Of a stretch of 44,916 bases of DNA, positions 4,385 to 27,278 are shown one piece after another (within the stretch, counting starts at the first letter, position 1; every line of letters starts with the position of its first letter). The stretch comes from Minisyncoccota bacterium. Its GTDB lineage: Bacteria > Patescibacteriota > Minisyncoccia > UBA6257 > 2-01-FULL-56-20. The stretch spans positions 1 through 44,916 of the forward strand of contig DATAXS010000012.1 in the NCBI GenBank assembly GCA_036266715.1, read 5' to 3'. The position numbers were made by a program, and so were the translations under genes. A model generated the notes under the pieces. That model did no database searches, had not been told where the DNA came from, and was given only the letters and a program-made list of their open reading frames with translations.

Positions 4385-5299
4385 TTATTTACCCCTCCTC
4401 TTCCCGTGGAACGCCCCGTGCACTTCCCGGAGTTCCTTGTTCGTGAGATGCGTGTAGATCTGCGTGGTCGCGATGTTCGCGTGGCCGAGGAGTTCCTGCA
4501 CGGAGCGAAGGTCGGCGCCGTTCATAAGGAGGTCGGTGGCAAAGCTGTGGCGCAGTTGGTGCGCATGGATCCTTTTACTGATGCCGGCCTGCTTGGCGCG
4601 TTCGGCGACGAGCCGCTGCACGGCGCGCGGGGTGACGGGGCCGATGACCTTCCCGCGCCGGTCCAGGCTCACAAACAGTTTTTCTTCCGCGTCGGTGCGT
4701 TTGCCCAAATAATTTTGTATCGCGCGCCGCGCGGAATCGGCAATAAAGACCACGCGCAGCTTGTCGCCTTTCCCGCGCACGGTGACCTCGCCGCGCTTGA
4801 GGTCCAAGTAGCGGCTCAGCGCACACAGTTCCGCAAGCCGCAGGCCGGTTGAAAAGAATGTTTCCAAGATCGCCTTGTCGCGGAGCGAGCGGAGGTCGGT
4901 GCCTTTGGGCGCGGCAAGAAGCCGCTCAAGGTCGCCATATTCCAGAACCTCTATCTGCCGCGAAGGCGTTTTGGGCAGCTCGATTTTTTCCGCCGCAAGC
5001 GCCTTGATATCGCGCTTCGCGAGATATTTCAAAAAATTGCGGATGGCGATCACATAGTAACTTTGCGTGATGCGCTTTAGGCCTTCGCGGCGTGCAAGCG
5101 CCAGGCGGAACTCGCGCACGAGCCCGTCCGTGATCTCGCGCGGCATTTTTATCTGAGCAAACTTTAAAAATTCCCGGAGGTAGTGCTCGTAATTTTCCCG
5201 CGTCTTCGGCGAGCGATTTTTCTCTATTTCGAGGTAGTCTAAATATTCGCGGAAGAGTTTTTCTATTTCTGTTTCAGCCATGATCTCATTATAGTCCAT
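4385..5299 (-). CDS. xerC: Tyrosine recombinase, XerC/XerD type
   Basis: C-terminal HQLRHSFATDLL...LLGHANIATTQIYTHL catalytic motifs, N-terminal core-binding-type helix region. Alternative start at ATG 5281 (MAETEIE..), preceded by TATAAT plus 6 nt. Confidence 0.85.
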   Translation of the reverse strand: MDYNEIMAETEIEKLFREYLDYLEIEKNRSPKTRENYEHYLREFLKFAQIKMPREITDGLVREFRLALARREGLKRITQSYYVIAIRNFLKYLAKRDIKALAAEKIELPKTPSRQIEVLEYGDLERLLAAPKGTDLRSLRDKAILETFFSTGLRLAELCALSRYLDLKRGEVTVRGKGDKLRVVFIADSARRAIQNYLGKRTDAEEKLFVSLDRRGKVIGPVTPRAVQRLVAERAKQAGISKRIHAHQLRHSFATDLLMNGADLRSVQELLGHANIATTQIYTHLTNKELREVHGAFHGKRRGK

Positions 5300-19226: not shown

Positions 19227-21911
19227 ATGCCAAACTTCCATCGTTTTACCATAAAAGCACAAGAAGCACTCCAGAACGCGCAGGACATTGCCGCAAAAAA
19301 GAATCACGGCGAACTGCGCGGCCTTCATCTTTTGGCGGCGCTCCTTACGGACGAGCAATCGCTTGTCGTACCGGTTTTGGAACGGTCCGGCGTGAACTTG
19401 GAGAAGCTTGATGAACAGATCGAGCAGGAATTGGACCGCATTCCGCCCATCCTTGCTTCCGGCGCGGTGGGCCAACTCTATCTTTCCCAAGAGCTCATGA
19501 AGATCTTGGACCAGGCGGCAAAGGTGGCGGCCCAGCAAAAGGATGAATTTGTTTCGTGCGAACATTTATTGCTCGCGTTGCTTGATGTGCAGGGCGGCGC
19601 CCGCTCGCTCCTGGAAAAGTTCGGCATGCGGCGCGAGAGCGCGTTCAGGATATTGGCGCAGCTCCGCGGTTCCTCGCGCGTGACGGACGAAACGCCCGAG
19701 AGCAAATTCCAGGTTTTGGAAAAATACGCGATCAATTTGAGCGAGAAGGCCAAAGCGGGCCAGCTTGATCCCGTGATCGGCCGCCAGGATGAATTGCGCC
19801 GCTTGATGCAGGTGCTTTCGCGCCGGACCAAGAACAATCCGTGTTTGATAGGCGAACCGGGCGTGGGGAAGACCGCCATCGTGGAAGGCCTTGCCCAGCG
19901 CATTGCCTCCGGCGACGTGCCGGAACCGCTCAAAGGGCGGCAGGTGTTGATGCTGGACCTCGGCTCGCTCATTGCGGGCACCAAGTTCCGCGGTGAATTT
20001 GAAGACCGCTTGAAGGCGTTCATGAAAGAAGTAAAGAACGCCGCGGGACAGATAATCCTTTTTATAGACGAGATACACACCATTGTGGGCGCGGGCGCTG
20101 CGGAAGGCGCAATAGACGCGTCCAACCTGCTTAAACCGGCCCTCGCGCGCGGCGAACTGCACGCCATAGGCGCCACGACCATCCGGGAATATCAGAAATA
20201 TATAGAGAAAGATGCCGCGCTGGAACGGCGCTTCCAGCCGATCATGGTTGAGGAACCGTCCATTGAAGATTCCATTTCCATTTTGCGCGGCCTCAAGGAA
20301 AAATATGAGATCCACCACGGCATGCGCATCAGCGACGAGGCAATCATTGAAGCCGTAAACCTTTCTGCACGCTACATTACCGACCGCTTTTTACCCGATA
20401 AAGCAGTGGACTTGATTGACGAAGCGGCTGCTGCGCGACGCTTGGAATCCGAGAGTTTGCCCAAAGAAATAGACACGGTACGCCGACAGCTCACGGGTCT
20501 TGAGATAGAAAAACAAGCGCTCATGAAGGAGGGTGCCGTGAAGACGAGTGCGCGCATGAAAGAGCTTGATGAGGCGATCGCAAAACTGAAAGAACAAAAC
20601 GACGAACTTTCCAGTAAGTGGCACTCGGAAAAAATAAAATTTGAAACACTGCACCAGCTCCGCCAGAAGGTGGAAAATTTGAAGCACGAAGCGGAGGTTG
20701 CGGAGCGCGAGGGCAATTTGGAGCGCGTGGCGCAGATCATGTACGGCGAATTGCCGCAGTCGGAAAAGGATTTCCAGATATTTGAAAAGAAGAATTTTGG
20801 CGGAGGCGCGGCGGGGGCAAAAGGAAAACGGACGCGCGCGACCGCGCGGGAAGGCGCTACGCATGATGCGGGAGGCGACCGTTTTCTCAAGGAAGCGGTA
20901 GACAAAGAAGACGTGGCGGCTGTGGTTTCCGTCTGGACCGGCATTCCTTTGAAGCGGATGTTGGAAACAGACTCAGAAAAACTCGTAAAAATTGAAGACG
21001 TGTTGCGCGGCCGCGTGGTCGGCCAGGAGCAGGCAATAGAAGCCGTTGCATCCGCCCTGCGCCGCTCGCGCGCGGGCTTGTCCGACGAAAACCGCCCCAT
21101 CGGCTCCTTTATGTTCCTCGGCCCCACCGGCGTCGGCAAAACCGAGCTCGCCCGCGCGCTCGCGGAATTCATGTTCAACGACGATAAAGCGCTTGTGCGC
21201 GTGGATATGTCCGAGTACATGGAGCGTCACGCGGTCTCCCGGCTTATCGGCTCACCCCCGGGCTACGTGGGCCACGAGGAAGGCGGCCAACTCACGGAGA
21301 CCATCCGTCACCGGCCGTACAGCCTTATCCTTTTTGATGAAATTGAGAAGGCGCACCCGGAGGTGTTCAATTTGCTTCTCCAAGTGCTGGACAATGGGCG
21401 GCTCACGGACAGCAAGGGGAAAACCGTGAACTTCAAGAATTCCATCATTATTATGACCTCCAACGTGGGCAGCCAGTACCTCAGGGCCATGTCCCGCATC
21501 GGGTTTAGCGCCCCGAGCGCCGAGGCATCGCCGGAAGAGGGGGATTACAGGGACAAGGTGACGGAAGCGCTCAAGCAGAGCTTCCGGCCCGAGTTTTTGA
21601 ACCGCATAGACGAGGTAGTCATTTTTAACCCGCTCCGCAGGCGTGACATTGAGAAGATTGTGGAGATTCAGATCAAGCTTATTGAAAAGCGCCTCAGCGA
21701 CCGGAACATCAAGCTGGAGATAGAGCCGGCGGCGCGGGAATACATCGCAAAAGAGGGGTTCAGCGCGGAATTCGGCGCACGTCCCTTGAAACGGCTCATG
21801 CAGAAAGTTATTCTTGATAAGCTGGCGGACAAAATAATCCGCGGCGAATTCAAGGATGGCGGAAAAGTTAAGGTCAATTTCAAAGCAGATTCACTGGTCT
21901 TTAGTTCTTAG
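19227..21911 (+). CDS. clpB: ATP-dependent chaperone ClpB
   Basis: Clp N domain, two AAA+ modules ([30 protein letters not shown]), coiled-coil M domain. 894 aa. Confidence 0.95.
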
Positions 21912-22566
21912 AGCGGCGGTTTTTGCCGTTGCCTGGTTTTTGCTGCCGTTCTGGCTGTTTTTCCTTATTGCGCTCTATCTCTACTTCGTTCCGCTCTTCC
22001 AGGCCGGCAAGCTTGCCGTGCCTTTTTTTGTCTTGCTCATCACTACCTACGTGCAGGCGCCTGACCCCCTCTTTATCATTGTCTTTGGCGCCGTGTTCTA
22101 TTTCCTTCTCCTTATAAAAGACCTGCTCCTCATTGACCGCCGCTCGGCGCACGAACTGCTCGTGCTCGTCCTTTCCTTCCTGCTCCTGCGGGATTTCTAC
22201 ATGGCGTTTCCACAAGGTATCAGCGGCGCGGCACTCTGGTACGCACTGTTTACGGCGATACTCGTGGCGCTCCTCGCGAGGAATCTGGTAAGAGGGGGTA
22301 CGGGTCAAGGCACCGACCTCGGCGGAGAACGCATGGCGCTTTGGCTTATTTTTTCCCTTGTCTGGCAGGCAACGATCGTGGGGCTCTTTTTGCCACTCGA
22401 CTTTGTGTATCAAATGCTCGCCGTTTTTCTCGTCGTCATCCTCGTGATAGACCTTATCCCGGATTATCTTTTTGGGACATTTGAAAGGACCAAGGCACTT
22501 ACCACGATAACCGTGGTTCTGATCCTTTTTGCCGTGATTTTGGGTTCGGCACAATGGGGGCTTTAG
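21856..22566 (+). CDS. Polytopic membrane protein (unknown function)
   Basis: Six or more hydrophobic helices. The only plausible start, ATG 21856, overlaps the clpB 3' end by 56 nt. Confidence 0.6.
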   Translation: MAEKLRSISKQIHWSLVLRAAVFAVAWFLLPFWLFFLIALYLYFVPLFQAGKLAVPFFVLLITTYVQAPDPLFIIVFGAVFYFLLLIKDLLLIDRRSAHELLVLVLSFLLLRDFYMAFPQGISGAALWYALFTAILVALLARNLVRGGTGQGTDLGGERMALWLIFSLVWQATIVGLFLPLDFVYQMLAVFLVVILVIDLIPDYLFGTFERTKALTTITVVLILFAVILGSAQWGL

Positions 22567-22605
22567 TGGGGGGGGCGAAAAATTTGCGGGTAAAGACGAG
22601 GGTCC

Positions 22606-22634
22606 TTGCCTTTGCCGGATTGCCGGATTATACT
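22606..22634 (+). promoter_or_regulatory. Promoter of the DeoR-like gene, spacer built from two TTGCCGGA octamers
   Basis: TTGCCT (22606-22611), 17 nt spacer = TTGCCGGA TTGCCGGA T, TATACT (22629-22634), 7 nt before ATG 22642. Confidence 0.6.
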
Positions 22635-22641
22635 CTGGCCT

Positions 22642-23424
22642 ATGCGGCAAAACGGCAATGGCAATCGGCAAGACAACCGGCAATCCGGCAAAACGGATCC
22701 GGCAATAATAAAGGCATATGAAATATGCTATGCCCTTTTCCGGATTGGGGCGAAGCTCCAGAACGCGGCCTTTGCCGAATCATTGGAGCGGCAAGCGCTT
22801 CGCTTGCTGAATGAGGCCATAGACGCCAACGGGGCAAAGATGCAGGATGCGGCAACGGCAATCGGCTATCTCGTGGGGTTCGGAGAGGGTATTGGATTCA
22901 TCCATCCAGGGAATGCGGAAACCATAAAAACCGAGCTCGGTGCTTTGAGCGAGCTTACGGTTTTGCCGGTTAGGACGGGATCCTCCGAAGAGGTGTCATT
23001 GGAGGATATTTTTTCTAAAAAACAGGAGCCGCTTTTTGGCGGTGGCGGCGCGGGCAAATCGGCAAGTGTCCCGGCAAACGGCAAAAGCCAATCCGGCAAT
23101 GCGGCAAAGAATAATAATGCGGCAAGCGGCAATTCGGCAATCCGGCAACCGGCAATGCGGCAAAACGAACCACCGGCTGATTTGCCGGAATTGAAATTTG
23201 ATAACGGCAACGGTGAATCCGGCAATGATAATCCGGCAATGCGGCAAACGGCAATTTTGGAGAAAATCAGGCAATCCGGCAATTGCCGATTAAAAGAGAT
23301 AGTTGAGCTTTTGCCGGATGCAAGCGAAAGGACCATCCGCTACGATCTGCAATCCCTCGTGGAGCAAAACTTGGTGGAGAGGGTGGGGAGTGGTGGCCCG
23401 ATGGTGTTCTACCGCCCCCGGTAG
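22642..23424 (+). CDS. DeoR-type HTH regulator with helical N-domain and low-complexity (N/G/Q/R/A) segments
   Basis: C-terminal RQTAILEKIRQSGNCRLKEIVELLPDASERTIRYDLQSLVEQNLVERVG resembles a DeoR/winged-helix HTH. Start moved to ATG 22642 behind the promoter. Confidence 0.7.
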   Translation: MRQNGNGNRQDNRQSGKTDPAIIKAYEICYALFRIGAKLQNAAFAESLERQALRLLNEAIDANGAKMQDAATAIGYLVGFGEGIGFIHPGNAETIKTELGALSELTVLPVRTGSSEEVSLEDIFSKKQEPLFGGGGAGKSASVPANGKSQSGNAAKNNNAASGNSAIRQPAMRQNEPPADLPELKFDNGNGESGNDNPAMRQTAILEKIRQSGNCRLKEIVELLPDASERTIRYDLQSLVEQNLVERVGSGGPMVFYRPR

Positions 23425-23783
23425 GGAAGGTTGCGCAAATAGGCATAAAAAGGTAACCTTTCCTACGTATTTGCGTTATAATACAAGCAAAGGTTAGAGG
23501 TCGGTGTGAGGCTGACCCCAATACCTTATTCACTAGTAAACCCGGCAATTTTGCCAGGTTTGGTTATTGGAAACAGCCTCGCCCAAAAGCGAGTTTTTTC
23601 TTTTTTATCCCCTCACATCCCCCTGATAACGATCCCGTTTTCTCCCTTCTTCCCGCTGTCGTCACCTCACAGCGATCGCGGATAAGGATGGAGAGGGCGG
23701 TTCCTAAAACAGTTTAAAAACTAAAAGGTCGACGGCCAAACGGTCGATATCTTCTAAAAATTGTCGAAAAATTAAATTAATAA

Positions 23784-26700
23784 ATGAATAGTAAAAAGTT
23801 AGTTTCGGTAGCTTTGACGGCGACCACCCTCGTGTGGGCGCTCGGCATCGCTGCCCTCCCCCTCGCGAACGCACAGTCAACGTCTGACCTTCAGGCTCAG
23901 ATCGCGGCTTTGCTCGCGCAGATCCAGCAACTGCAGTCGCAGCTTAACGCTTCGACGGGTAGCACGACCACTTCTTCAATGACGTACGATTTCACCACTG
24001 ACCTCACCATTGGTTCAACCGGCGCCGAAGTGACGCAGCTCCAACAGTTCTTGATCAGCGGAGGATACCTCACCGCGGTCTCGGCGCCGACCGGCTACTT
24101 CGGTACTCTTACCCAAGCGGCTGTGTCTGCGTTCCAGGCAGCGAACGGTATTACCCCGACTGCTGGATACTTTGGTCCTAAGACCAGGGCATTCATCAAC
24201 GCAATGAGCACGACGAGCACGGGCACTGGCACGACGACCGGCACAACCGGTACGACCGTTCCGGCGACTGGTCTCTCGGTCTCTGTTGCTTCCACAAACC
24301 CGGCGGCGGGTTCGCTCGTGACGTCGGCTTCCGGCAACACGGCAGCAGCTCGCATTCCGATTCTTGCGATAAGCCTTACGGCATCCAACTCGGGTGCAGT
24401 AACGGTCTCGCAGATAAACGTCCACAAGAATGGCGTTCTCTCAGATGCTTCAATCAACGGTGCGTACTTGATCCAAAACGGTCAGGTGCTCTACCAATAC
24501 AATTCGCTTAGCAGCGGCGTAATCTCTTTCTCCGGCATGAACCTTTCGGTTCCGGCTGGGCAAACGGTAACGCTCCAAGTTGCTATCGACCCTGCTCCGG
24601 GCCTTTCGCCTGGGAACACGGTGAGCTTCTCCGTGAACTCCGCTTCGGACATCACGGCGTTTGATGTGAACAACAATTCACTCACGCCGTCCGGTTCGTT
24701 CCCCTTGAACGGCAACACGTTCACGGCGACGACGGTCAGCAACCCGCCCGTTGCGGGCTTGACGATCCAATCTTCTTCCATCGCGACGCAGGTTACTGCG
24801 GGAACGCAGAACAACATCGTGTGGGCAGGAACCTTCAATGGTCAGAACAGTTTGACCTGGCTTGAAGGCCTCAACTTCACGGTCATCGGTTCTGCCAGCA
24901 ATGGCGACATCCGGAACGTGAAGCTCTTTGTAAACGGCACGCAGGTCGGACCGACCTTGGCGACCGTTTCGCAGAACGGCACGGCTTACTTCAACCTCGC
25001 TTCTGCTCCGGCATCGCTTAGCACCGGCAACAACAACGTGCAGGTGTACGCGGACGTCATGGGTTCACCGAACAAGAACTTCCAGTTCGAAATCTTGAAC
25101 TCCTACGACGTGAACGCGGTTGACTCGCAGTACAACGTACCGATTGCGGTAACGTTGGGCAGCGGCCTGAACAACCAGACCGCCTATGAGGTGATGATTC
25201 AGCAGGGTCAGATTACGGTATCGCAGGATTCCGGTACGCCCACGGGCAACATTGCCGTTGGCCAGTCTGGTGTCACGATAGCGAAGTTTGACGTCTATGC
25301 AGCTGGTGAGCCCGTCAAGGTCAAATTCCTTGGCTTCCAGTTGTCCCTCACTGGTGTTGCAACGAGTTCTGGTGCAACCAGCATAGGTTCCTTCGTGAAG
25401 AACATCGCATTGGTTGACGATGCGGGTGGCCAGGTGGGTAGTACCATCAACACGCCTCCGTCGAGCAACTCGTGTGATAACACGACGGGTCTATCAGGTT
25501 ACTCGACAACCAGCGCTGGCCAGAGCACTATCACGGCGAGCACTGTGAATTATGTTGATTGTTTCGGAACCTCTGGTTCACCGATCAACTACATCATTCC
25601 GGCGAACACGACCCGCGTCCTTTCGCTCAAGGCTGACATCCAGTCACTTCCGGCTGGTGCGACCTTCGGCTCGGTGGTGGGTAGTCTCTTGACTGAATCT
25701 GGCAACTTGCAGGGCATGATCTCAAACGCCCAGAGCAACAGCTCTGGCGCGCAGGGGAGCTCGCTTTCCTTGCAGTCCAGCTTGCTTGGCGTGACCGCCA
25801 ATTCGGCCTACGGTAGCCAAACCGTTACGCCGAACACTTCGGGCGCTCACATTGGTTCGTACGCCTTCACGGCTTCGTCCGCGAGTGGCGTAACGATCAA
25901 CACATTAAGCTTGAAGGTGTATCCGAACACCGTGAGCAACGCGGAAACGTCGGACATCCAGAACCTCAAGGTTATGGTAAACGGCGCGCAGTTCGGCAAC
26001 ACGTATGGCGTGGTACCCGACAATGGTACGTATTCCTTCTCTGGCACGGCCTTCACGGTCCCTGCCGGCGGTACGACCTATGTTGACGTGTACGGCGACA
26101 TTCTCTCGAGTGCGACGAGTTCAGCGTCCATTCCGACCTCACCTGCTGGTGCGACGCAGATAACTGGTTGCTCCGGTACGAGCATTGTTTCTTACGGCTC
26201 GGTATCGTGCACCGCGACGCCTGTCGGTCAGCAGTTGACGATTGCGACGCAAGGCAACACGCAGGTATCGATTGGTCTTGACTCTTCCGCTCCGGCGTCG
26301 AGCCAACTCGTAATGGGTTCCACTGGTAACACGTTGGCGGCATACCGCTTGTCGGAAACCTCCAACATCGAGCCGGTGAAAGTGACCGATCTCACGATCA
26401 GTCAGGTAACCTCTGCGACGACTTCGGCATACCAGAATGTGACGCTCTACAACGGCTCCACGGTGGTCGGTACATCCGGCTCCGCGTCCAGCACGGGTAC
26501 GGGCTTCACGTACACATTCCACTTCGCGACTCCGGTCATCATCCCGCAAGCGAATTCGCTTACGCTTAGCTTGAAGGGTGACATAGCGTCGTACAACTCC
26601 ATCGGTAGTACTGGAGTAGACGACACGACTTCCACCTTCAACTTGGCGACCTCGTCCATTACGGCGTTGGGCGCAAGTTCCAACTTCCCGGTGACGAATG

Positions 26701-27278
26701 TCTCCGGTGGCGCGACAGGTAACACCATGACGGTGCTCCGCACGACGCTCACCCCGAGTGCGACGGCCCTTGGCAACACCACGGGTCGTACGAAATCGGC
26801 GGTGGACAGTCTTGCAAACATCACCTTCACGGCAAACAGCGCAGGCTCTGCGATGTTGAAGAATTTGACTCTCAACTTCACGGGCAGCGCGGTTTCATCC
26901 TCCGCATTCGCGGCAGATGTAAACCTCCTCGACCAGAACAACCTGGATGTTGTCGCGAATGATAACGCGACGGTCACATCGACTTCGTGTTCTTCTACGG
27001 GTGCCTGTACGCTTATATGGACCTTCAACACGACCTCGACTCCGTTCGTGGTCTCCGGTGGTTCGTCCTATGTGTTCACGCTCCGCTTGAACGACACGGC
27101 GAATGGCGTTGGGGTAGCGACGGGCAACGCTTCGGTCAGCTTGGGTGTAACAATCCAGAACACGACGAGCACGCAGTACTATGACGCCGGCCAAGCAAGC
27201 GGCGCGAGTACGGTTAGCTTGCCGACGACGCTTGTTCCGCTCAACGTGAACTCGATCACGTTCGCTCAGAACTCCTAG
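23784..27278 (+). CDS. Giant secreted surface protein (1164 aa) with N-terminal coiled coil and peptidoglycan-binding domain
   Basis: Signal peptide ..PLANAQ, DLQAQIAALLAQIQQLQSQL coiled coil, PG_binding_1-like LTIGSTGAEVTQLQQFLISGGYL..GYFGPKTRAFI, then about 1000 aa of T/S/G/N/V-rich beta-type sequence. Confidence 0.85.
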   Translation: MNSKKLVSVALTATTLVWALGIAALPLANAQSTSDLQAQIAALLAQIQQLQSQLNASTGSTTTSSMTYDFTTDLTIGSTGAEVTQLQQFLISGGYLTAVSAPTGYFGTLTQAAVSAFQAANGITPTAGYFGPKTRAFINAMSTTSTGTGTTTGTTGTTVPATGLSVSVASTNPAAGSLVTSASGNTAAARIPILAISLTASNSGAVTVSQINVHKNGVLSDASINGAYLIQNGQVLYQYNSLSSGVISFSGMNLSVPAGQTVTLQVAIDPAPGLSPGNTVSFSVNSASDITAFDVNNNSLTPSGSFPLNGNTFTATTVSNPPVAGLTIQSSSIATQVTAGTQNNIVWAGTFNGQNSLTWLEGLNFTVIGSASNGDIRNVKLFVNGTQVGPTLATVSQNGTAYFNLASAPASLSTGNNNVQVYADVMGSPNKNFQFEILNSYDVNAVDSQYNVPIAVTLGSGLNNQTAYEVMIQQGQITVSQDSGTPTGNIAVGQSGVTIAKFDVYAAGEPVKVKFLGFQLSLTGVATSSGATSIGSFVKNIALVDDAGGQVGSTINTPPSSNSCDNTTGLSGYSTTSAGQSTITASTVNYVDCFGTSGSPINYIIPANTTRVLSLKADIQSLPAGATFGSVVGSLLTESGNLQGMISNAQSNSSGAQGSSLSLQSSLLGVTANSAYGSQTVTPNTSGAHIGSYAFTASSASGVTINTLSLKVYPNTVSNAETSDIQNLKVMVNGAQFGNTYGVVPDNGTYSFSGTAFTVPAGGTTYVDVYGDILSSATSSASIPTSPAGATQITGCSGTSIVSYGSVSCTATPVGQQLTIATQGNTQVSIGLDSSAPASSQLVMGSTGNTLAAYRLSETSNIEPVKVTDLTISQVTSATTSAYQNVTLYNGSTVVGTSGSASSTGTGFTYTFHFATPVIIPQANSLTLSLKGDIASYNSIGSTGVDDTTSTFNLATSSITALGASSNFPVTNVSGGATGNTMTVLRTTLTPSATALGNTTGRTKSAVDSLANITFTANSAGSAMLKNLTLNFTGSAVSSSAFAADVNLLDQNNLDVVANDNATVTSTSCSSTGACTLIWTFNTTSTPFVVSGGSSYVFTLRLNDTANGVGVATGNASVSLGVTIQNTTSTQYYDAGQASGASTVSLPTTLVPLNVNSITFAQNS

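What the first reader, a model, noticed from the sequence alone, without database searches (positions are those of the whole stretch)
22606..23320. Swarm of CGGCAA/TTGCCG hexamers with non-codon (7-8 nt) spacing in and upstream of a DeoR-like regulator gene
Reading by eye, I count about 26 CGGCAA and about 7 TTGCCG hexamers in roughly 720 bp; a random hexamer is expected about 0.2 times per strand at this length. The densest run has six copies starting at 23120, 23127, 23135, 23143, 23150 and 23158, giving periods of 7, 8, 8, 7 and 8 nt. Further clusters lie at 22646-22706 and 23060-23107. Because the period is not a multiple of 3, the motif passes through all three frames. The resulting peptide is low-complexity but not repetitive (..AASGNSAIRQPAMRQ..), so the repeat is better defined in the DNA or RNA than in the peptide, which points to nucleic-acid-level selection. 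In the opposite orientation, two TTGCCGGA octamers (22612-22627) make up essentially the whole 17-nt spacer of this gene's own promoter. A perfect 14-bp palindrome, CGGCAAGCTTGCCG, sits at 22005-22018 in the upstream membrane-protein gene. Possible roles:
- an operator array for the encoded HTH protein, giving autoregulation or spreading;
- an RNA-binding platform;
- a slippage-prone contingency tract, since gain or loss of a 7- or 8-nt unit would frameshift the regulator that sits just upstream of the giant surface-protein gene.
I know of no described system with this arrangement.
Basis: seen in the sequence. Interest (0 to 1): 0.78.

Follow-up and report, generated by a model that had tools for sequence, protein, structure and literature searches.

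The report
Regulator gene packed with its operator
A small DNA-binding regulator conserved across one group of ultra-small (CPR) bacteria has a short DNA word (CGGCAA/TTGCCG) written dozens of times through its own promoter and coding sequence and preserved there by selection on the DNA itself, most likely as binding sites for its own protein.

Summary
There are 26 CGGCAA and 7 TTGCCG in 22606-23320, or 46/kb against 1.6/kb in the rest of the window. The copies fall in all three frames with 7-8 nt periods.

It is not a quirk of this genome. All 80 orthologous loci from different Paceibacteria species show 4-32 copies/kb in this gene, against 0-3.7/kb in most flanks. The enrichment starts about 100 bp upstream of the start codon and stops at the stop codon.

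Selection acts on the nucleic acid. Resampling synonymous codons predicts 4.3 CGGCAA in the window gene (26 seen) and 88 across 73 genes (593 seen). At the conserved peptides RQ, RQSGNC and LP the codons are almost fixed so as to spell CGGCAAT(C)CGGCAATTGCCG and TTGCCG. Control codons in the same domain vary freely.

Two TTGCCGGA copies fill the -35/-10 spacer of a conserved, apparently leaderless promoter. The same word forms non-coding clusters of mixed orientation upstream of a DksA/TraR-type gene in eight species.

Best reading: an operator array for the encoded protein (four-helix bundle, disordered linker, C-terminal winged helix), giving autorepression and a small regulon. Binding is inferred, not shown. 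An RNA platform is not excluded. A contingency tract is not supported. The arrangement appears undescribed.

The parts
22606..22634 (+). Sigma-70-type promoter of the regulator gene. It reads -35 TTGCCT (22606-22611), then a 17-nt spacer made of two TTGCCGGA octamers (22612-22619 and 22620-22627) plus T, then -10 TATACT (22629-22634). The ATG lies 7 nt after the -10, so the mRNA is probably leaderless.
   Evidence: Promoter scan. The same layout, TTGacn/TTGcaa-TTGCCG(G/C)A-TTGCCGGA-TTATAAT/TATACT, about 8 nt, then ATG, recurs in many orthologs. 39 of 68 orthologs have at least 1 TTGCCG in the 70 nt upstream, and 23 of 68 have at least 2. The leaderless start is an inference from spacing.
22642..23424 (+). 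Regulator gene, 260 aa. The protein has a disordered N-tail (aa 1-19), a four-helix bundle (aa 20-106), a disordered linker (about aa 109-194) and a C-terminal winged helix of HTH_DeoR type (aa 198-259).
   Evidence: ORF; Pfam PF08220 at aa 201-248. There are 193 homologs, named 'DeoR family transcriptional regulator [Minisyncoccia]' where a name exists. AlphaFold2 model: the bundle and the winged helix have pLDDT above 90 and the linker is below 50.
22645..22705 (+). Array of six CGGCAA copies at +4 to +64 of the transcript, in the codons of the disordered N-terminal tail (MRQNGNGNRQDNRQSGKTDPA).
   Evidence: The N-tail has the highest motif density across 68 orthologs, 27/kb. A copy inside the codons for xSGK is present in 31 of 54 orthologs.
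22772..22968 (.). Scattered copies inside the four-helix-bundle codons: 22772 (-), 22789 (+, in LERQAL), 22850 (+), 22856 (+) and 22963 (-).
   Evidence: Bundle codons carry 9.7 copies/kb across orthologs, against about 1.5-2/kb in flanks. Recurrent positions are listed.
23060..23254 (+). Linker array. There are 17 CGGCAA copies (23060-23163 and 23205-23254) with mostly 7-8 nt spacing, plus one TTGCCGGA on the opposite strand (23182-23189). They encode the disordered linker; the last two (23242, 23249) already lie in the MRQTAI codons of the conserved core.
   Evidence: the linker is disordered in the model. The window has the largest linker array of all orthologs, and 17 of 68 orthologs have none in the linker. 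Unit number differs between the closest relatives.
23242..23318 (+). Conserved core at the start of the winged helix.
- CGGCAA at 23242 (MRQ) and 23249 (TAI).
- A degenerate AGGCAA at 23270 (IRQ).
- CGGCAA at 23277 (SGN), abutting TTGCCG at 23283 (NCR). Together they form the 12-bp palindrome CGGCAATTGCCG at 23277-23288.
- TTGCCGGAT at 23311-23319 (LPD).
- TCCGGCAA at 23275-23282 is the reverse complement of the promoter octamer.
   Evidence: Motif frequency at these positions in 68 orthologs: 51, 36, 51, 44, 49 and 36. Synonymous codons in 31 orthologs are near-fixed: CGG 28/31, CAA 31/31, TCC 29/31, GGC 31/31, AAT 31/31, TGC 30/31, TTG 27/27, CCG 28/29. Background usage of these codons is 0.19-0.77. 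Control codons R230, R233, L236, Q237, T231, Y234, D235 and E229 are mixed.

Best explanation
**What it is**
The hexamer is the core of a 7-8 bp DNA word, (A)T(C)CGGCAA(T), whose reverse complement is TTGCCGGA. It serves as a protein-binding site, and the most likely binder is the product of the gene that carries it. That product is a Paceibacteria-specific regulator built from an N-terminal four-helix bundle (probably the oligomerisation module), a long disordered linker and a C-terminal winged helix of DeoR type.

**Proposed mechanism**
1. Two sites fill the -35/-10 spacer of the gene's own promoter, and six more lie at +4 to +64 of a probably leaderless transcript. Bound protein would therefore occlude RNA polymerase or block early elongation, giving negative autoregulation.
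2. Further sites are fixed in the codons at the start of the winged helix, and a variable number sit in the codons of the disordered tail and linker, where the peptide is free to change. These give an oligomer with flexibly tethered DNA-binding domains a multivalent, high-avidity platform on its own gene. The platform could act by looping to the promoter, as a roadblock, or as a built-in titration sink.
3. The same word in non-coding clusters upstream of a DksA/TraR-type zinc-finger gene makes that gene a second target.

**Status of each step**
- Shown: the enrichment, its sharp limits, its conservation in 80 species, synonymous-site constraint, the promoter overlap, and the second non-coding locus.
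- Inferred: who binds, the sign of regulation, the oligomeric state, and the role of the intragenic copies.
For: **Enrichment and limits**
- The enrichment is exact and extreme.
- All 80 ortholog loci share it: 4-32/kb in the gene against 0-3.7/kb in the flanks for all but one locus (L025, 13.3 against 7.2/kb with a short 1.8-kb flank).
- It is bounded by -100 upstream and the stop codon.
- An unbiased hexamer ranking returns only shifts of CCGGCAAT.

**Selection on the nucleic acid**
- Codon resampling gives 26 against 4.3 in the window gene. Over 73 genes it gives 593 against 88 for CGGCAA and 243 against 45 for TTGCCG.
- Synonymous codons are fixed at RQ/RQSGNC/LP, but not at control codons of the same domain.

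**DNA rather than RNA**
- The spacer octamers are conserved in orthologous promoters.
- Tandem 16-mers with up to 2 mismatches number 133 in the genes and 9 in 545 kb of flanks.
- Non-coding clusters of mixed orientation lie upstream of a DksA/TraR gene (PF01258) in 8 species. Five of these genomes are shown to carry the regulator as well.
- Distant dksA-like genes in other lineages have none.

**The likely binder**
- The gene encodes a winged helix.
- The residues SER, T, RYD and L of its recognition helix (SERTIRYDL) are invariant, as the motif is.
- Arrays sit where the model is disordered.
- The bundle resembles the four-helix-bundle proteins Xcc0516 (2gsc), BT_0352 (2rld) and Avd (4dwl), with target-normalised TM about 0.7.
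- Orthologs with the exact in-gene core have promoter copies in 19 of 22 cases, against 20 of 46 without it (not corrected for phylogeny).

**Precedent for arrays in this HTH class**
GlpR binds four adjacent operators, O1-O4, at glpFK (PMC4117983).
Against: - There is no binding or expression data of any kind. The binder could be another protein.
- Spacing of 7-8 bp is tighter than a typical winged-helix footprint, so adjacent copies cannot all be occupied on one face of the DNA.
- The coding-strand bias suits an RNA element. It is 26:7 in the window and 137:23 in linkers. It can also be explained by coding constraint: TTGCCG forces L-P, C-R or hydrophobic-Ala, which suit a polar linker poorly.
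- 17 of 68 orthologs have no linker copies. The window's linker swarm may therefore be a lineage-specific expansion by slippage rather than individually selected sites.
- No arrays were seen at the neighbouring clpB, membrane-protein or surface-protein genes. The regulon is small or mostly unseen.
- The window contains no dksA-like gene to test.
- The structural match of the bundle is weak (E = 0.013-0.07), and the oligomeric state is untested.
Confidence: 0.55

Rival explanations
1. RNA-level element. The CGGCAA copies act in the mRNA as a single-stranded platform for a multimeric RNA-binding protein, possibly the gene's own product, or as pairing partners for the UUGCCGGA segments. They would control translation or mRNA stability.
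For: - There is a strong coding-strand bias: 26 against 7 in the window and 137 against 23 in linkers.
- The linker array as RNA is less structured than shuffles, z = +1.9, as expected for a single-stranded platform.
- The 7-8 nt period is easier to reconcile with RNA-binding multimers than with duplex-DNA binding.
- The start of the HTH region can form a hairpin, UCCGGCAA...UUGCCGGA, z = -3.3.
- There is a weak Pfam match to the RNase R winged helix (HTH_12, E = 0.001).
Against: - The two best-conserved upstream copies lie between -35 and -10, upstream of the inferred start of a leaderless mRNA, and in the opposite orientation.
- The clusters upstream of the DksA-type gene mix both orientations.
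- Palindromes such as CGGCAATTGCCG (56 cases) are typical of duplex sites.
- Both arms of the candidate hairpin are nearly invariant in the orthologs examined, so there is little compensatory change that could support a helix.
- There is no Rfam match at E <= 1.
Confidence: 0.15
2. Mutational by-product. The swarm is cryptic simple sequence produced by replication slippage or duplication in a disordered linker under weak constraint, seeded from a few functional core sites. Most copies, especially those in the linker, would have no function of their own.
For: - The copies concentrate where the peptide is disordered.
- The closest relatives differ by whole-unit insertions and deletions in the N-tail and linker.
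- 17 of 68 orthologs have no linker copies, and the window is the extreme case.
- Same-strand orientation is what tandem duplication produces.
- Perfect (TTGCCGGA)n microsatellites exist in unrelated metagenomic organisms.
Against: - It cannot explain the near-fixed synonymous codons at RQ/RQSGNC/LP across species whose other synonymous sites are mixed.
- It cannot explain the conserved promoter copies.
- It cannot explain the 9.7/kb density inside the structured bundle codons.
- It cannot explain retention of the same word in all 80 species despite unalignable linkers.
- It cannot explain the non-coding clusters at a second locus.
- As a partial account of the window's extra linker copies it remains plausible.
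Confidence: 0.12
3. Centromere-like or nucleoid-organising site. The array is a unique chromosomal landmark, analogous to a parS or parC cluster carried in or next to the gene of its binding protein, and the protein assembles on it into a higher-order complex. Transcriptional autoregulation would be secondary.
For: - There is a dense array of short repeats at essentially one or two loci.
- The site lies inside the binder's own gene.
- The winged helix gives weak structural matches that include centromere-binding proteins (AspA 5k5q, pNOB8 4rs8), among many generic winged-helix hits.
- A spiral arrangement is implied by the 8-bp period.
Against: - No partition ATPase or other segregation gene is linked. 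The conserved neighbours are clpB, a membrane protein and a surface protein.
- A second array sits at a promoter region of a regulatory gene (dksA type), which fits a regulon better.
- The structural matches are generic.
Confidence: 0.08
4. Contingency (phase-variation) tract. Gain or loss of a 7- or 8-nt unit frameshifts the regulator and switches it off reversibly.
For:
- One ortholog (L064) is frameshifted inside the linker array, and one (L016) carries an in-frame stop.
- Unit number differs between species.
Against: - The units are imperfect and interleaved. TRF reports 66-90% matches with up to 20% indels, and the longest perfect tract is two units.
- 78 of 80 species have intact ORFs.
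- The L064 genome is a long-read-style assembly, in which single-base indel errors are common. The L016 lesion is a substitution, not a unit change.
- The motif is equally conserved where a frameshift is irrelevant, in the promoter and in intergenic clusters.
Confidence: 0.03

Closest known systems
DeoR/GlpR-family repressors with multiple operators (E. coli GlpR at glpFK O1-O4; from memory also internal operators in glpD and the three looped DeoR operators)
   Same: - The winged helix is of HTH_DeoR type.
- Several adjacent operators cover a promoter (PMC4117983).
- Remote operators inside a structural gene that act with promoter operators are, from memory (Yang and Larson 1996; not held in the library), known for glpD.
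   Different: - The HTH is C-terminal, not N-terminal.
- There is no DeoRC sugar-phosphate sensor domain; a four-helix bundle and a roughly 85-aa disordered linker take its place.
- The site is 7-8 bp at 7-8 bp spacing, not about 20-bp operators.
- There are tens of copies, inside the regulator's own coding sequence, in all three frames, and fixed at synonymous sites.
CtsR, the class III stress-gene repressor of Firmicutes (comparison from memory, not tested here)
   Same: - It combines a winged helix with a four-helix bundle.
- It binds a directly repeated heptanucleotide.
- It is autoregulated.
- It is genetically linked to clp chaperone genes. Here the regulator sits two genes downstream of clpB in a conserved cluster.
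   Different: - The domain order is reversed.
- There is no sequence or Foldseek match to CtsR in the top hits.
- The CtsR operator is two heptads at a 10-nt period in promoters only.
- No motif is found at the clpB promoter here.
Binding-site arrays carried in or beside the binder's own gene (parS within spo0J/parB; parC repeats flanking the parMR promoter; iterons beside rep genes). Comparison from general knowledge.
   Same: - Short repeats are clustered at the gene of the protein presumed to bind them.
- The promoter overlap gives autoregulation.
- Direct and inverted copies occur together.
   Different: - There is no partition or replication gene nearby.
- The repeats are 7-8 bp rather than 11-43 bp.
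- The copies are embedded throughout the coding sequence under dual coding constraint.
- A second array lies at a DksA-type gene.
Simple-sequence contingency loci (for example tetra- to heptanucleotide tracts in Haemophilus, Neisseria and Campylobacter genes)
   Same: A non-triplet unit lies inside an ORF, and unit number varies between lineages.
   Different: - The units are imperfect and interspersed.
- ORFs are intact in 78 of 80 species.
- The same word is conserved in promoters and in non-coding DNA.

Membership tests
DeoR/GlpR family of transcriptional repressors | HTH_DeoR winged-helix DNA-binding domain (PF08220) | tested here: met
   PF08220 matches with E = 2.6e-10 and 40.3 bits (cut-off 21) at aa 201-248. 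Note that the domain is C-terminal here, whereas the family has it at the N-terminus.
DeoR/GlpR family of transcriptional repressors | C-terminal DeoRC effector (sugar-phosphate) binding domain, with the HTH at the N-terminus | tested here: not met
   Pfam reports only HTH families at E <= 0.1. NCBIfam DeoR/GlpR equivalogs score 12-30 bits against cut-offs of 250-350, and only over the HTH. The model shows a four-helix bundle and a disordered linker instead.
Autoregulated transcription factor with operator in its own promoter | Candidate binding word overlaps the core promoter and is conserved there in orthologs | tested here: met
   Two TTGCCGGA copies fill the 17-nt spacer. The arrangement recurs in orthologous promoters. 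The -100..0 bin carries 15.3 copies/kb against about 1.5-3 further upstream.
Autoregulated transcription factor with operator in its own promoter | The encoded protein binds the word and changes transcription of its own gene | not testable with these tools
   This needs EMSA or DAP-seq and a reporter assay. Only indirect support exists: the recognition helix and the word are both nearly invariant, and in-gene core and promoter copies co-occur.
Simple-sequence contingency (phase-variable) locus | Uninterrupted tract of identical head-to-tail units long enough for frequent slippage | tested here: not met
   TRF arrays show 66-90% matches with 0-20% indels. The only perfect tract is two units, at 22612-22629.
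Simple-sequence contingency (phase-variable) locus | Within-population unit-number variation that switches the reading frame | not testable with these tools
   The protein's 90% cluster has a single member on a single contig. Between species the differences are in frame. 78 of 80 ORFs are intact.
Avd / 23S-rRNA-IVP ('S23p') four-helix-bundle proteins | Four-helix-bundle fold of that family | tested here: inconclusive
   Foldseek matches 2gsc (E = 0.013, target TM 0.72, rmsd 1.5 over 97 columns), 4dwl Avd (target TM 0.71) and 2rld (target TM 0.69). There is no sequence-level match in Pfam or to PDB sequences. The oligomeric state cannot be tested.
Described structured RNA families (Rfam 15) | Covariance-model match | tested here: not met
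   There is no match at E <= 1 in 22400-23900, and only four tRNAs in the whole window.

The most novel reading that the evidence does not exclude
The coding sequence of a lineage-wide regulator doubles as a multivalent binding platform for its own product. An oligomeric protein, made of a four-helix bundle and flexibly tethered winged helices, would read an array of 7-8 bp words. These words are written through its promoter, its disordered-region codons and even its most conserved peptide codons. Parts of the protein sequence (ESGK, RQSGNC, LPD) would then be dictated by the DNA site rather than by protein function. The gene would act as its own operator, roadblock or titration sink, and would set the threshold for a minimal regulon that includes a DksA-type factor.
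Probability: 0.35. Interest if true: 0.8.

Novelty: new variant of a known kind. Interest (0 to 1): 0.68.

Why it matters
Almost nothing is known about transcriptional control in CPR/Patescibacteria, which cannot be grown alone. This locus offers a concrete, testable regulator-and-operator pair. It is conserved across a whole class, and it comes with a defined word, a defined promoter and a likely second target, a DksA/TraR-type factor.

It is also an unusually clear natural case of dual coding. Synonymous sites, and probably some amino acids, of a transcription factor are held in place by a DNA signal inside its own gene. If the intragenic array is occupied by the protein, it would be a built-in multivalent operator or decoy. 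That design has so far been discussed mainly for synthetic or eukaryotic repeat arrays.

There is a practical consequence too. The word and the gene's conserved neighbourhood (clpB, membrane protein, regulator, RNA-like leader, giant surface protein) form a recognisable marker of Paceibacteria genomes.

Tried and rejected
- **Peptide or codon-usage explanation: rejected.** Resampling synonymous codons under local usage gives 4.3 copies (maximum 11) against 26 observed.
- **Genome-wide abundance of the word: rejected.** The rest of the window has 1.6/kb, and the flanks of 80 loci have 0-3.7/kb in all but one locus.
- **Known RNA families: none found**.
- **Replication origin: unsupported.** Cumulative GC skew shows no inflection across the window.
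- **Regulation of clpB or the surface-protein gene through this word: unsupported.** There is no enrichment at the clpB promoter or downstream of the regulator's stop. The single copy at 23543 lies in a variable insert of another element.
- **The 22005 palindrome as part of the system: rejected.** It is not conserved.
- **Metagenome scan for (TTGCCGGA)x2.75: little gained.**
  - It returned mostly perfect octamer microsatellites in unrelated organisms.
  - Only 3 hits were regulator genes and 1 was a dksA-type locus.
- **Sequence search of solved structures with the family profile: nothing significant**.
- **Literature searches: nothing relevant.**
  - The searches covered the word, and Parcubacteria or Patescibacteria regulators.
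  - The one 'DeoR' hit was an author name, Deorowicz.
- **No dksA-like gene lies in the window**, so the second target cannot be checked in this genome.
Full report
**1. The observation**

Between 22606 and 23320 there are 26 CGGCAA on the + strand and 7 TTGCCG. The dense run starts at 23120, 23127, 23135, 23143, 23150 and 23158, with periods 7, 8, 8, 7, 8. The other clusters lie at 22645-22705 and 23060-23107. The + copies fall in all three frames (7/11/8) of the ORF that starts at ATG 22642.

The enrichment is far beyond chance:
- Density is 46/kb, against 1.6/kb in the rest of the window. The next-best 715-bp window holds 5 copies.
- No dinucleotide shuffle of the window reaches the observed total.
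- The octamer TTGCCGGA and its tandem dimer are even more concentrated at this locus.

A promoter-like site lies at 22606-22634: TTGCCT, a 17-nt spacer, then TATACT. Its spacer consists of two TTGCCGGA copies plus one T.

**2. The gene**

The ORF 22642-23424 encodes 260 aa. Pfam finds only a C-terminal HTH_DeoR winged helix at aa 201-248. There is no DeoR sensor domain.

An AlphaFold2 model built on 26 homologs gives three parts:
- a confident four-helix bundle (aa 20-106);
- a disordered stretch (about aa 109-194);
- a confident winged helix (aa 198-259).

The bundle weakly resembles the four-helix-bundle proteins Xcc0516 (2gsc), BT_0352 (2rld) and Avd (4dwl). The winged helix resembles many MarR/ArsR/BlaI-type domains.

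The family has 193 detectable members. Lengths among the 120 listed run from 200 to 304 aa, and the members that carry a name are called Minisyncoccia DeoR-family regulators. The length differences lie in the linker.

**3. The swarm is a property of the gene family**

I fetched 80 orthologous loci from different species-level genomes of Paceibacteria/Parcubacteria.
- In every one the hexamer pair is enriched in this gene, at 4.2-31.8/kb. The ±4 kb flanks have 0-3.7/kb in all but one locus (L025, 7.2/kb in a short 1.8-kb flank). The window is the extreme case at 38.8/kb.
- The enrichment begins in the 100 bp upstream of the start codon (15.3/kb). It falls to background immediately after the stop codon and beyond -300.
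- An unbiased ranking of all hexamers, gene against flanks, returns only shifted versions of one word: GGCAAT, CGGCAA, GCAATT, CCGGAT, CGGATT, CAATTG and CCGGCA. This holds in close and distant members and in low-GC genomes.
- The extended word is AAT(C)CGGCAA(T).
- Adjacent same-strand copies are mostly 8 nt (123 cases) or 7 nt (53) apart. The commonest opposed arrangement is the abutting palindrome CGGCAATTGCCG, with 56 cases.

**4. DNA/RNA or peptide?**

Two tests both point to the nucleic acid.

*Codon resampling.* I kept each protein sequence and redrew synonymous codons from the usage of the flanking genes.

| Set | Motif | Expected | Observed |
|---|---|---|---|
| Window gene | CGGCAA | 4.3 (max 11 in 300) | 26 |
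| 73 orthologs | CGGCAA | 88 | 593 |
| 73 orthologs | TTGCCG | 45 | 243 |

*Codon choice at conserved peptides.* These are the conserved peptides at the start of the winged helix, in the 31 orthologs that share the full pattern.

| Position | Codon used | Count | Background usage |
|---|---|---|---|
| R201 | CGG | 27/31 | 0.23 |
| Q202 | CAA | 28/31 | 0.19 |
| R210 | CGG | 28/31 | 0.23 |
| Q211 | CAA | 31/31 | 0.19 |
| S212 | TCC | 29/31 | 0.23 |
| G213 | GGC | 31/31 | 0.49 |
| N214 | AAT | 31/31 | 0.34 |
| C215 | TGC | 30/31 | 0.77 |
| L224 | TTG | 27/27 | 0.23 |
| P225 | CCG | 28/29 | 0.56 |

Control residues of the same domain (R230, R233, L236, Q237, T231, Y234, D235, E229) use mixed codons. 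The DNA ...CGGCAAT(C)CGGCAATTGCCG...TTGCCGGAT is therefore conserved beyond what the protein needs.

A map of copy positions on a 68-sequence alignment shows recurrent copies at these places: xSGK (N-tail), NAAIA (end of the bundle), MRQ, SAI, IRQ, SGN, NC(R) and LP(D).

The tandem TCCGGCAATCCGGCAA that encodes (I)RQSGN is the exact reverse complement of the promoter spacer TTGCCGGATTGCCGGA.

**5. Promoter**

Many orthologs share one layout:
- -35 (TTGACN or TTGCAA);
- TTGCCG(G/C)A, then TTGCCGGA;
- TTATAAT, TTATACT or TTATGCT;
- about 8 nt;
- ATG.

A further copy lies in the codons of E(S/T)GK. The two closest relatives (67% and 61% protein identity) keep the spacer base for base.

The ATG lies 7 nt after the -10, so the transcript is probably leaderless. 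This is an inference from spacing.

39 of 68 orthologs have at least one TTGCCG in the 70 nt upstream, and 23 have two or more. Orthologs with the exact in-gene core have promoter copies in 19 of 22 cases, against 20 of 46 without it (not corrected for phylogeny). The most distant members lack upstream copies.

**6. A second, non-coding locus**

A scan of 185,579 species genomes for TTGCCGSATTGCCGGATTAT gave 35 hits.
- About 19 were this gene's own promoter.
- Three more hits lay in further members of the family (L208, L219, L221).
- Several lay elsewhere in genomes that also carry the regulator.
- Four of those (L213, L188, L223, L230) lie in the intergenic region upstream of a small DksA/TraR-type zinc-finger gene (PF01258).

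I then fetched dksA-like loci directly.
- The five closest orthologs (54-68% identity) have 2-6 copies in the 350 bp upstream (5.6-16.7/kb).
- About 75 more distant dksA-like genes, from other CPR lineages and other phyla, have almost none.

In all, eight species carry such clusters. Both orientations occur, and the clusters include triple and quadruple tandem octamers and palindromes.

The word is therefore a cis element in non-coding DNA as well, independent of any peptide. The window itself contains no dksA-like gene.

**7. Where the copies sit**

Density across 68 orthologs:

| Region | Copies per kb |
|---|---|
| N-tail | 27.3 |
| Bundle codons | 9.7 |
| Linker | 15.1 |
| Winged-helix codons | 22.8 |

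The linker copies are the variable part. 17 of 68 orthologs have none, the window has the most (13 + 1), and close relatives differ by whole-unit insertions and deletions. The conserved part is the promoter, the first codons and the start of the winged helix.

**8. Mechanism**

The best-supported reading is a protein-binding DNA word. The obvious candidate binder is the gene's own winged-helix product.
- Sites in the -35/-10 spacer and at +4 to +64 predict negative autoregulation.
- A bundle that oligomerises, joined to DNA-binding domains by linkers of about 85 aa, would be well suited to clusters of irregularly spaced and oriented short sites.
- The intragenic copies could serve looping, roadblock or titration.
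- Arrays of operators are known for the HTH_DeoR class: GlpR has O1-O4 at glpFK (PMC4117983). From memory, glpD also has operators inside the structural gene.

What is shown is the statistics, the conservation, the synonymous constraint, the promoter overlap and the second locus. What is inferred is the identity of the binder, the sign of regulation, the oligomeric state and the role of the intragenic copies.

**9. Rivals**

*RNA platform.* This remains possible.
- For it: the strand bias, the tight period, and a linker-array RNA less structured than shuffles, z = +1.9. The start of the winged-helix region can also form a hairpin, z = -3.3.
- Against it: the spacer copies lie upstream of the inferred start and in the opposite orientation, the intergenic clusters mix orientations, palindromes are common, and the hairpin arms are nearly invariant rather than covarying.
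- The strand bias can be explained by coding. TTGCCG forces L-P, C-R or hydrophobic-Ala, which suit a polar disordered linker poorly.

*Pure slippage.* This cannot explain fixed synonymous sites, conserved promoter copies or the second locus. It may account for the window's extra linker copies.

*Centromere-like role.* No linked partition genes are present.

*Contingency tract.* This is not supported.
- The units are imperfect.
- 78 of 80 ORFs are intact.
- The two exceptions are an in-frame TAG (L016) and a frameshift in a long-read-style assembly (L064).

**10. Context**

The cluster clpB, 236-aa membrane protein, regulator, giant PG_binding_1 surface protein is conserved in 53-73 of the 80 species. 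The word is not enriched at the clpB promoter or in the surface-protein leader. The 14-bp palindrome at 22005 is not conserved.

**11. Novelty**

Autoregulated repressors with operator arrays are a known kind. What I could not find described is the combination seen here:
- tens of 7-8 bp sites written through the regulator's own coding sequence, in all three frames;
- those sites fixed at synonymous positions of its most conserved peptide;
- that peptide's coding sequence mirroring the promoter spacer;
- a protein of new architecture, conserved across a CPR class.

I rate it a new variant of a known kind, with interest 0.68. The confidence of 0.55 applies to the operator and autoregulation reading as a whole. 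That the word is a selected nucleic-acid signal I hold at above 0.9.

Noticed in passing
window 23477-23600 and 23620-23783; orthologs e.g. L001 4739-4822, L017 4753-4848: A conserved, unannotated RNA-like element lies between the regulator and the surface-protein gene.
- After a TATAAT comes a hairpin, GGTTCrG-TGTGAGG-CTGAACC, whose arms covary between species.
- A variable insert follows, then CAGCCTCGC-loop-GCGAG and a T-run (terminator at 23578-23600).
- GAGGCTG in the first hairpin is complementary to CAGCCTC, which overlaps the terminator arm. This suggests a terminator/antiterminator switch.
- A second conserved block precedes the surface-protein ATG.
- There is no Rfam match at E <= 1.
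   Followed up: partly
window 19227-27278: The gene order clpB, 236-aa membrane protein (no Pfam family), regulator, 1164-aa PG_binding_1 surface protein is conserved in 53-73 of 80 Paceibacteria species.
   Followed up: partly
L016 3952-4700 and L064 3958-4700: Two orthologs are disrupted. L016 has an in-frame TAG at codon 125, with the rest of the gene intact in the same frame. L064 has a frameshift inside the linker array. Either could be a real inactivation or split, or an assembly error.
   Followed up: partly
L213 ~4720-4800, L223, L230 ~330-370, L232, L234, L236 (intergenic region upstream of the DksA-type gene): A second, different palindromic word of the type TGTTTGTCGACAAACA / TTGACAAACAnnnnTGTTTGTCA recurs in the same intergenic region, next to the CGGCAA clusters. 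In L213 and L223 that region lies between a YraN-like gene and the DksA-type gene. It may be the operator of another regulator.
   Followed up: no
L331 11073-11142, L352 4-67, L334 7-100, and others: Perfect (TTGCCGGA)n microsatellites of 8-12 units occur in intergenic DNA of unrelated organisms from other metagenomes. Some sit beside other 8-nt-period repeats such as (ATTGCAGG)n (L339).
   Followed up: partly
L233 ~1830-1930: A run of N interrupts the CGGCAA cluster upstream of the DksA-type gene in this assembly. It may be masking or an assembly gap at the repeat.
   Followed up: no
window 21923-21928; L017 at -725 from the regulator start: A small excess of TTGCCG (4.3/kb in the -800 bin over 65 loci) falls in the N-terminal codons (VFAVAW) of the upstream membrane-protein gene. 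Its significance is unclear.
   Followed up: partly
L201 930-1000; L200 7640-7760; L215 400-470: Further non-coding clusters of the word occur in CPR genomes. They lie upstream of an aminotransferase-like gene (Liptonbacteria, L201), about 200 bp upstream of an 850-aa surface-protein gene (L200), and beside a LAGLIDADG-like ORF (L215). These may be additional regulon members.
   Followed up: no
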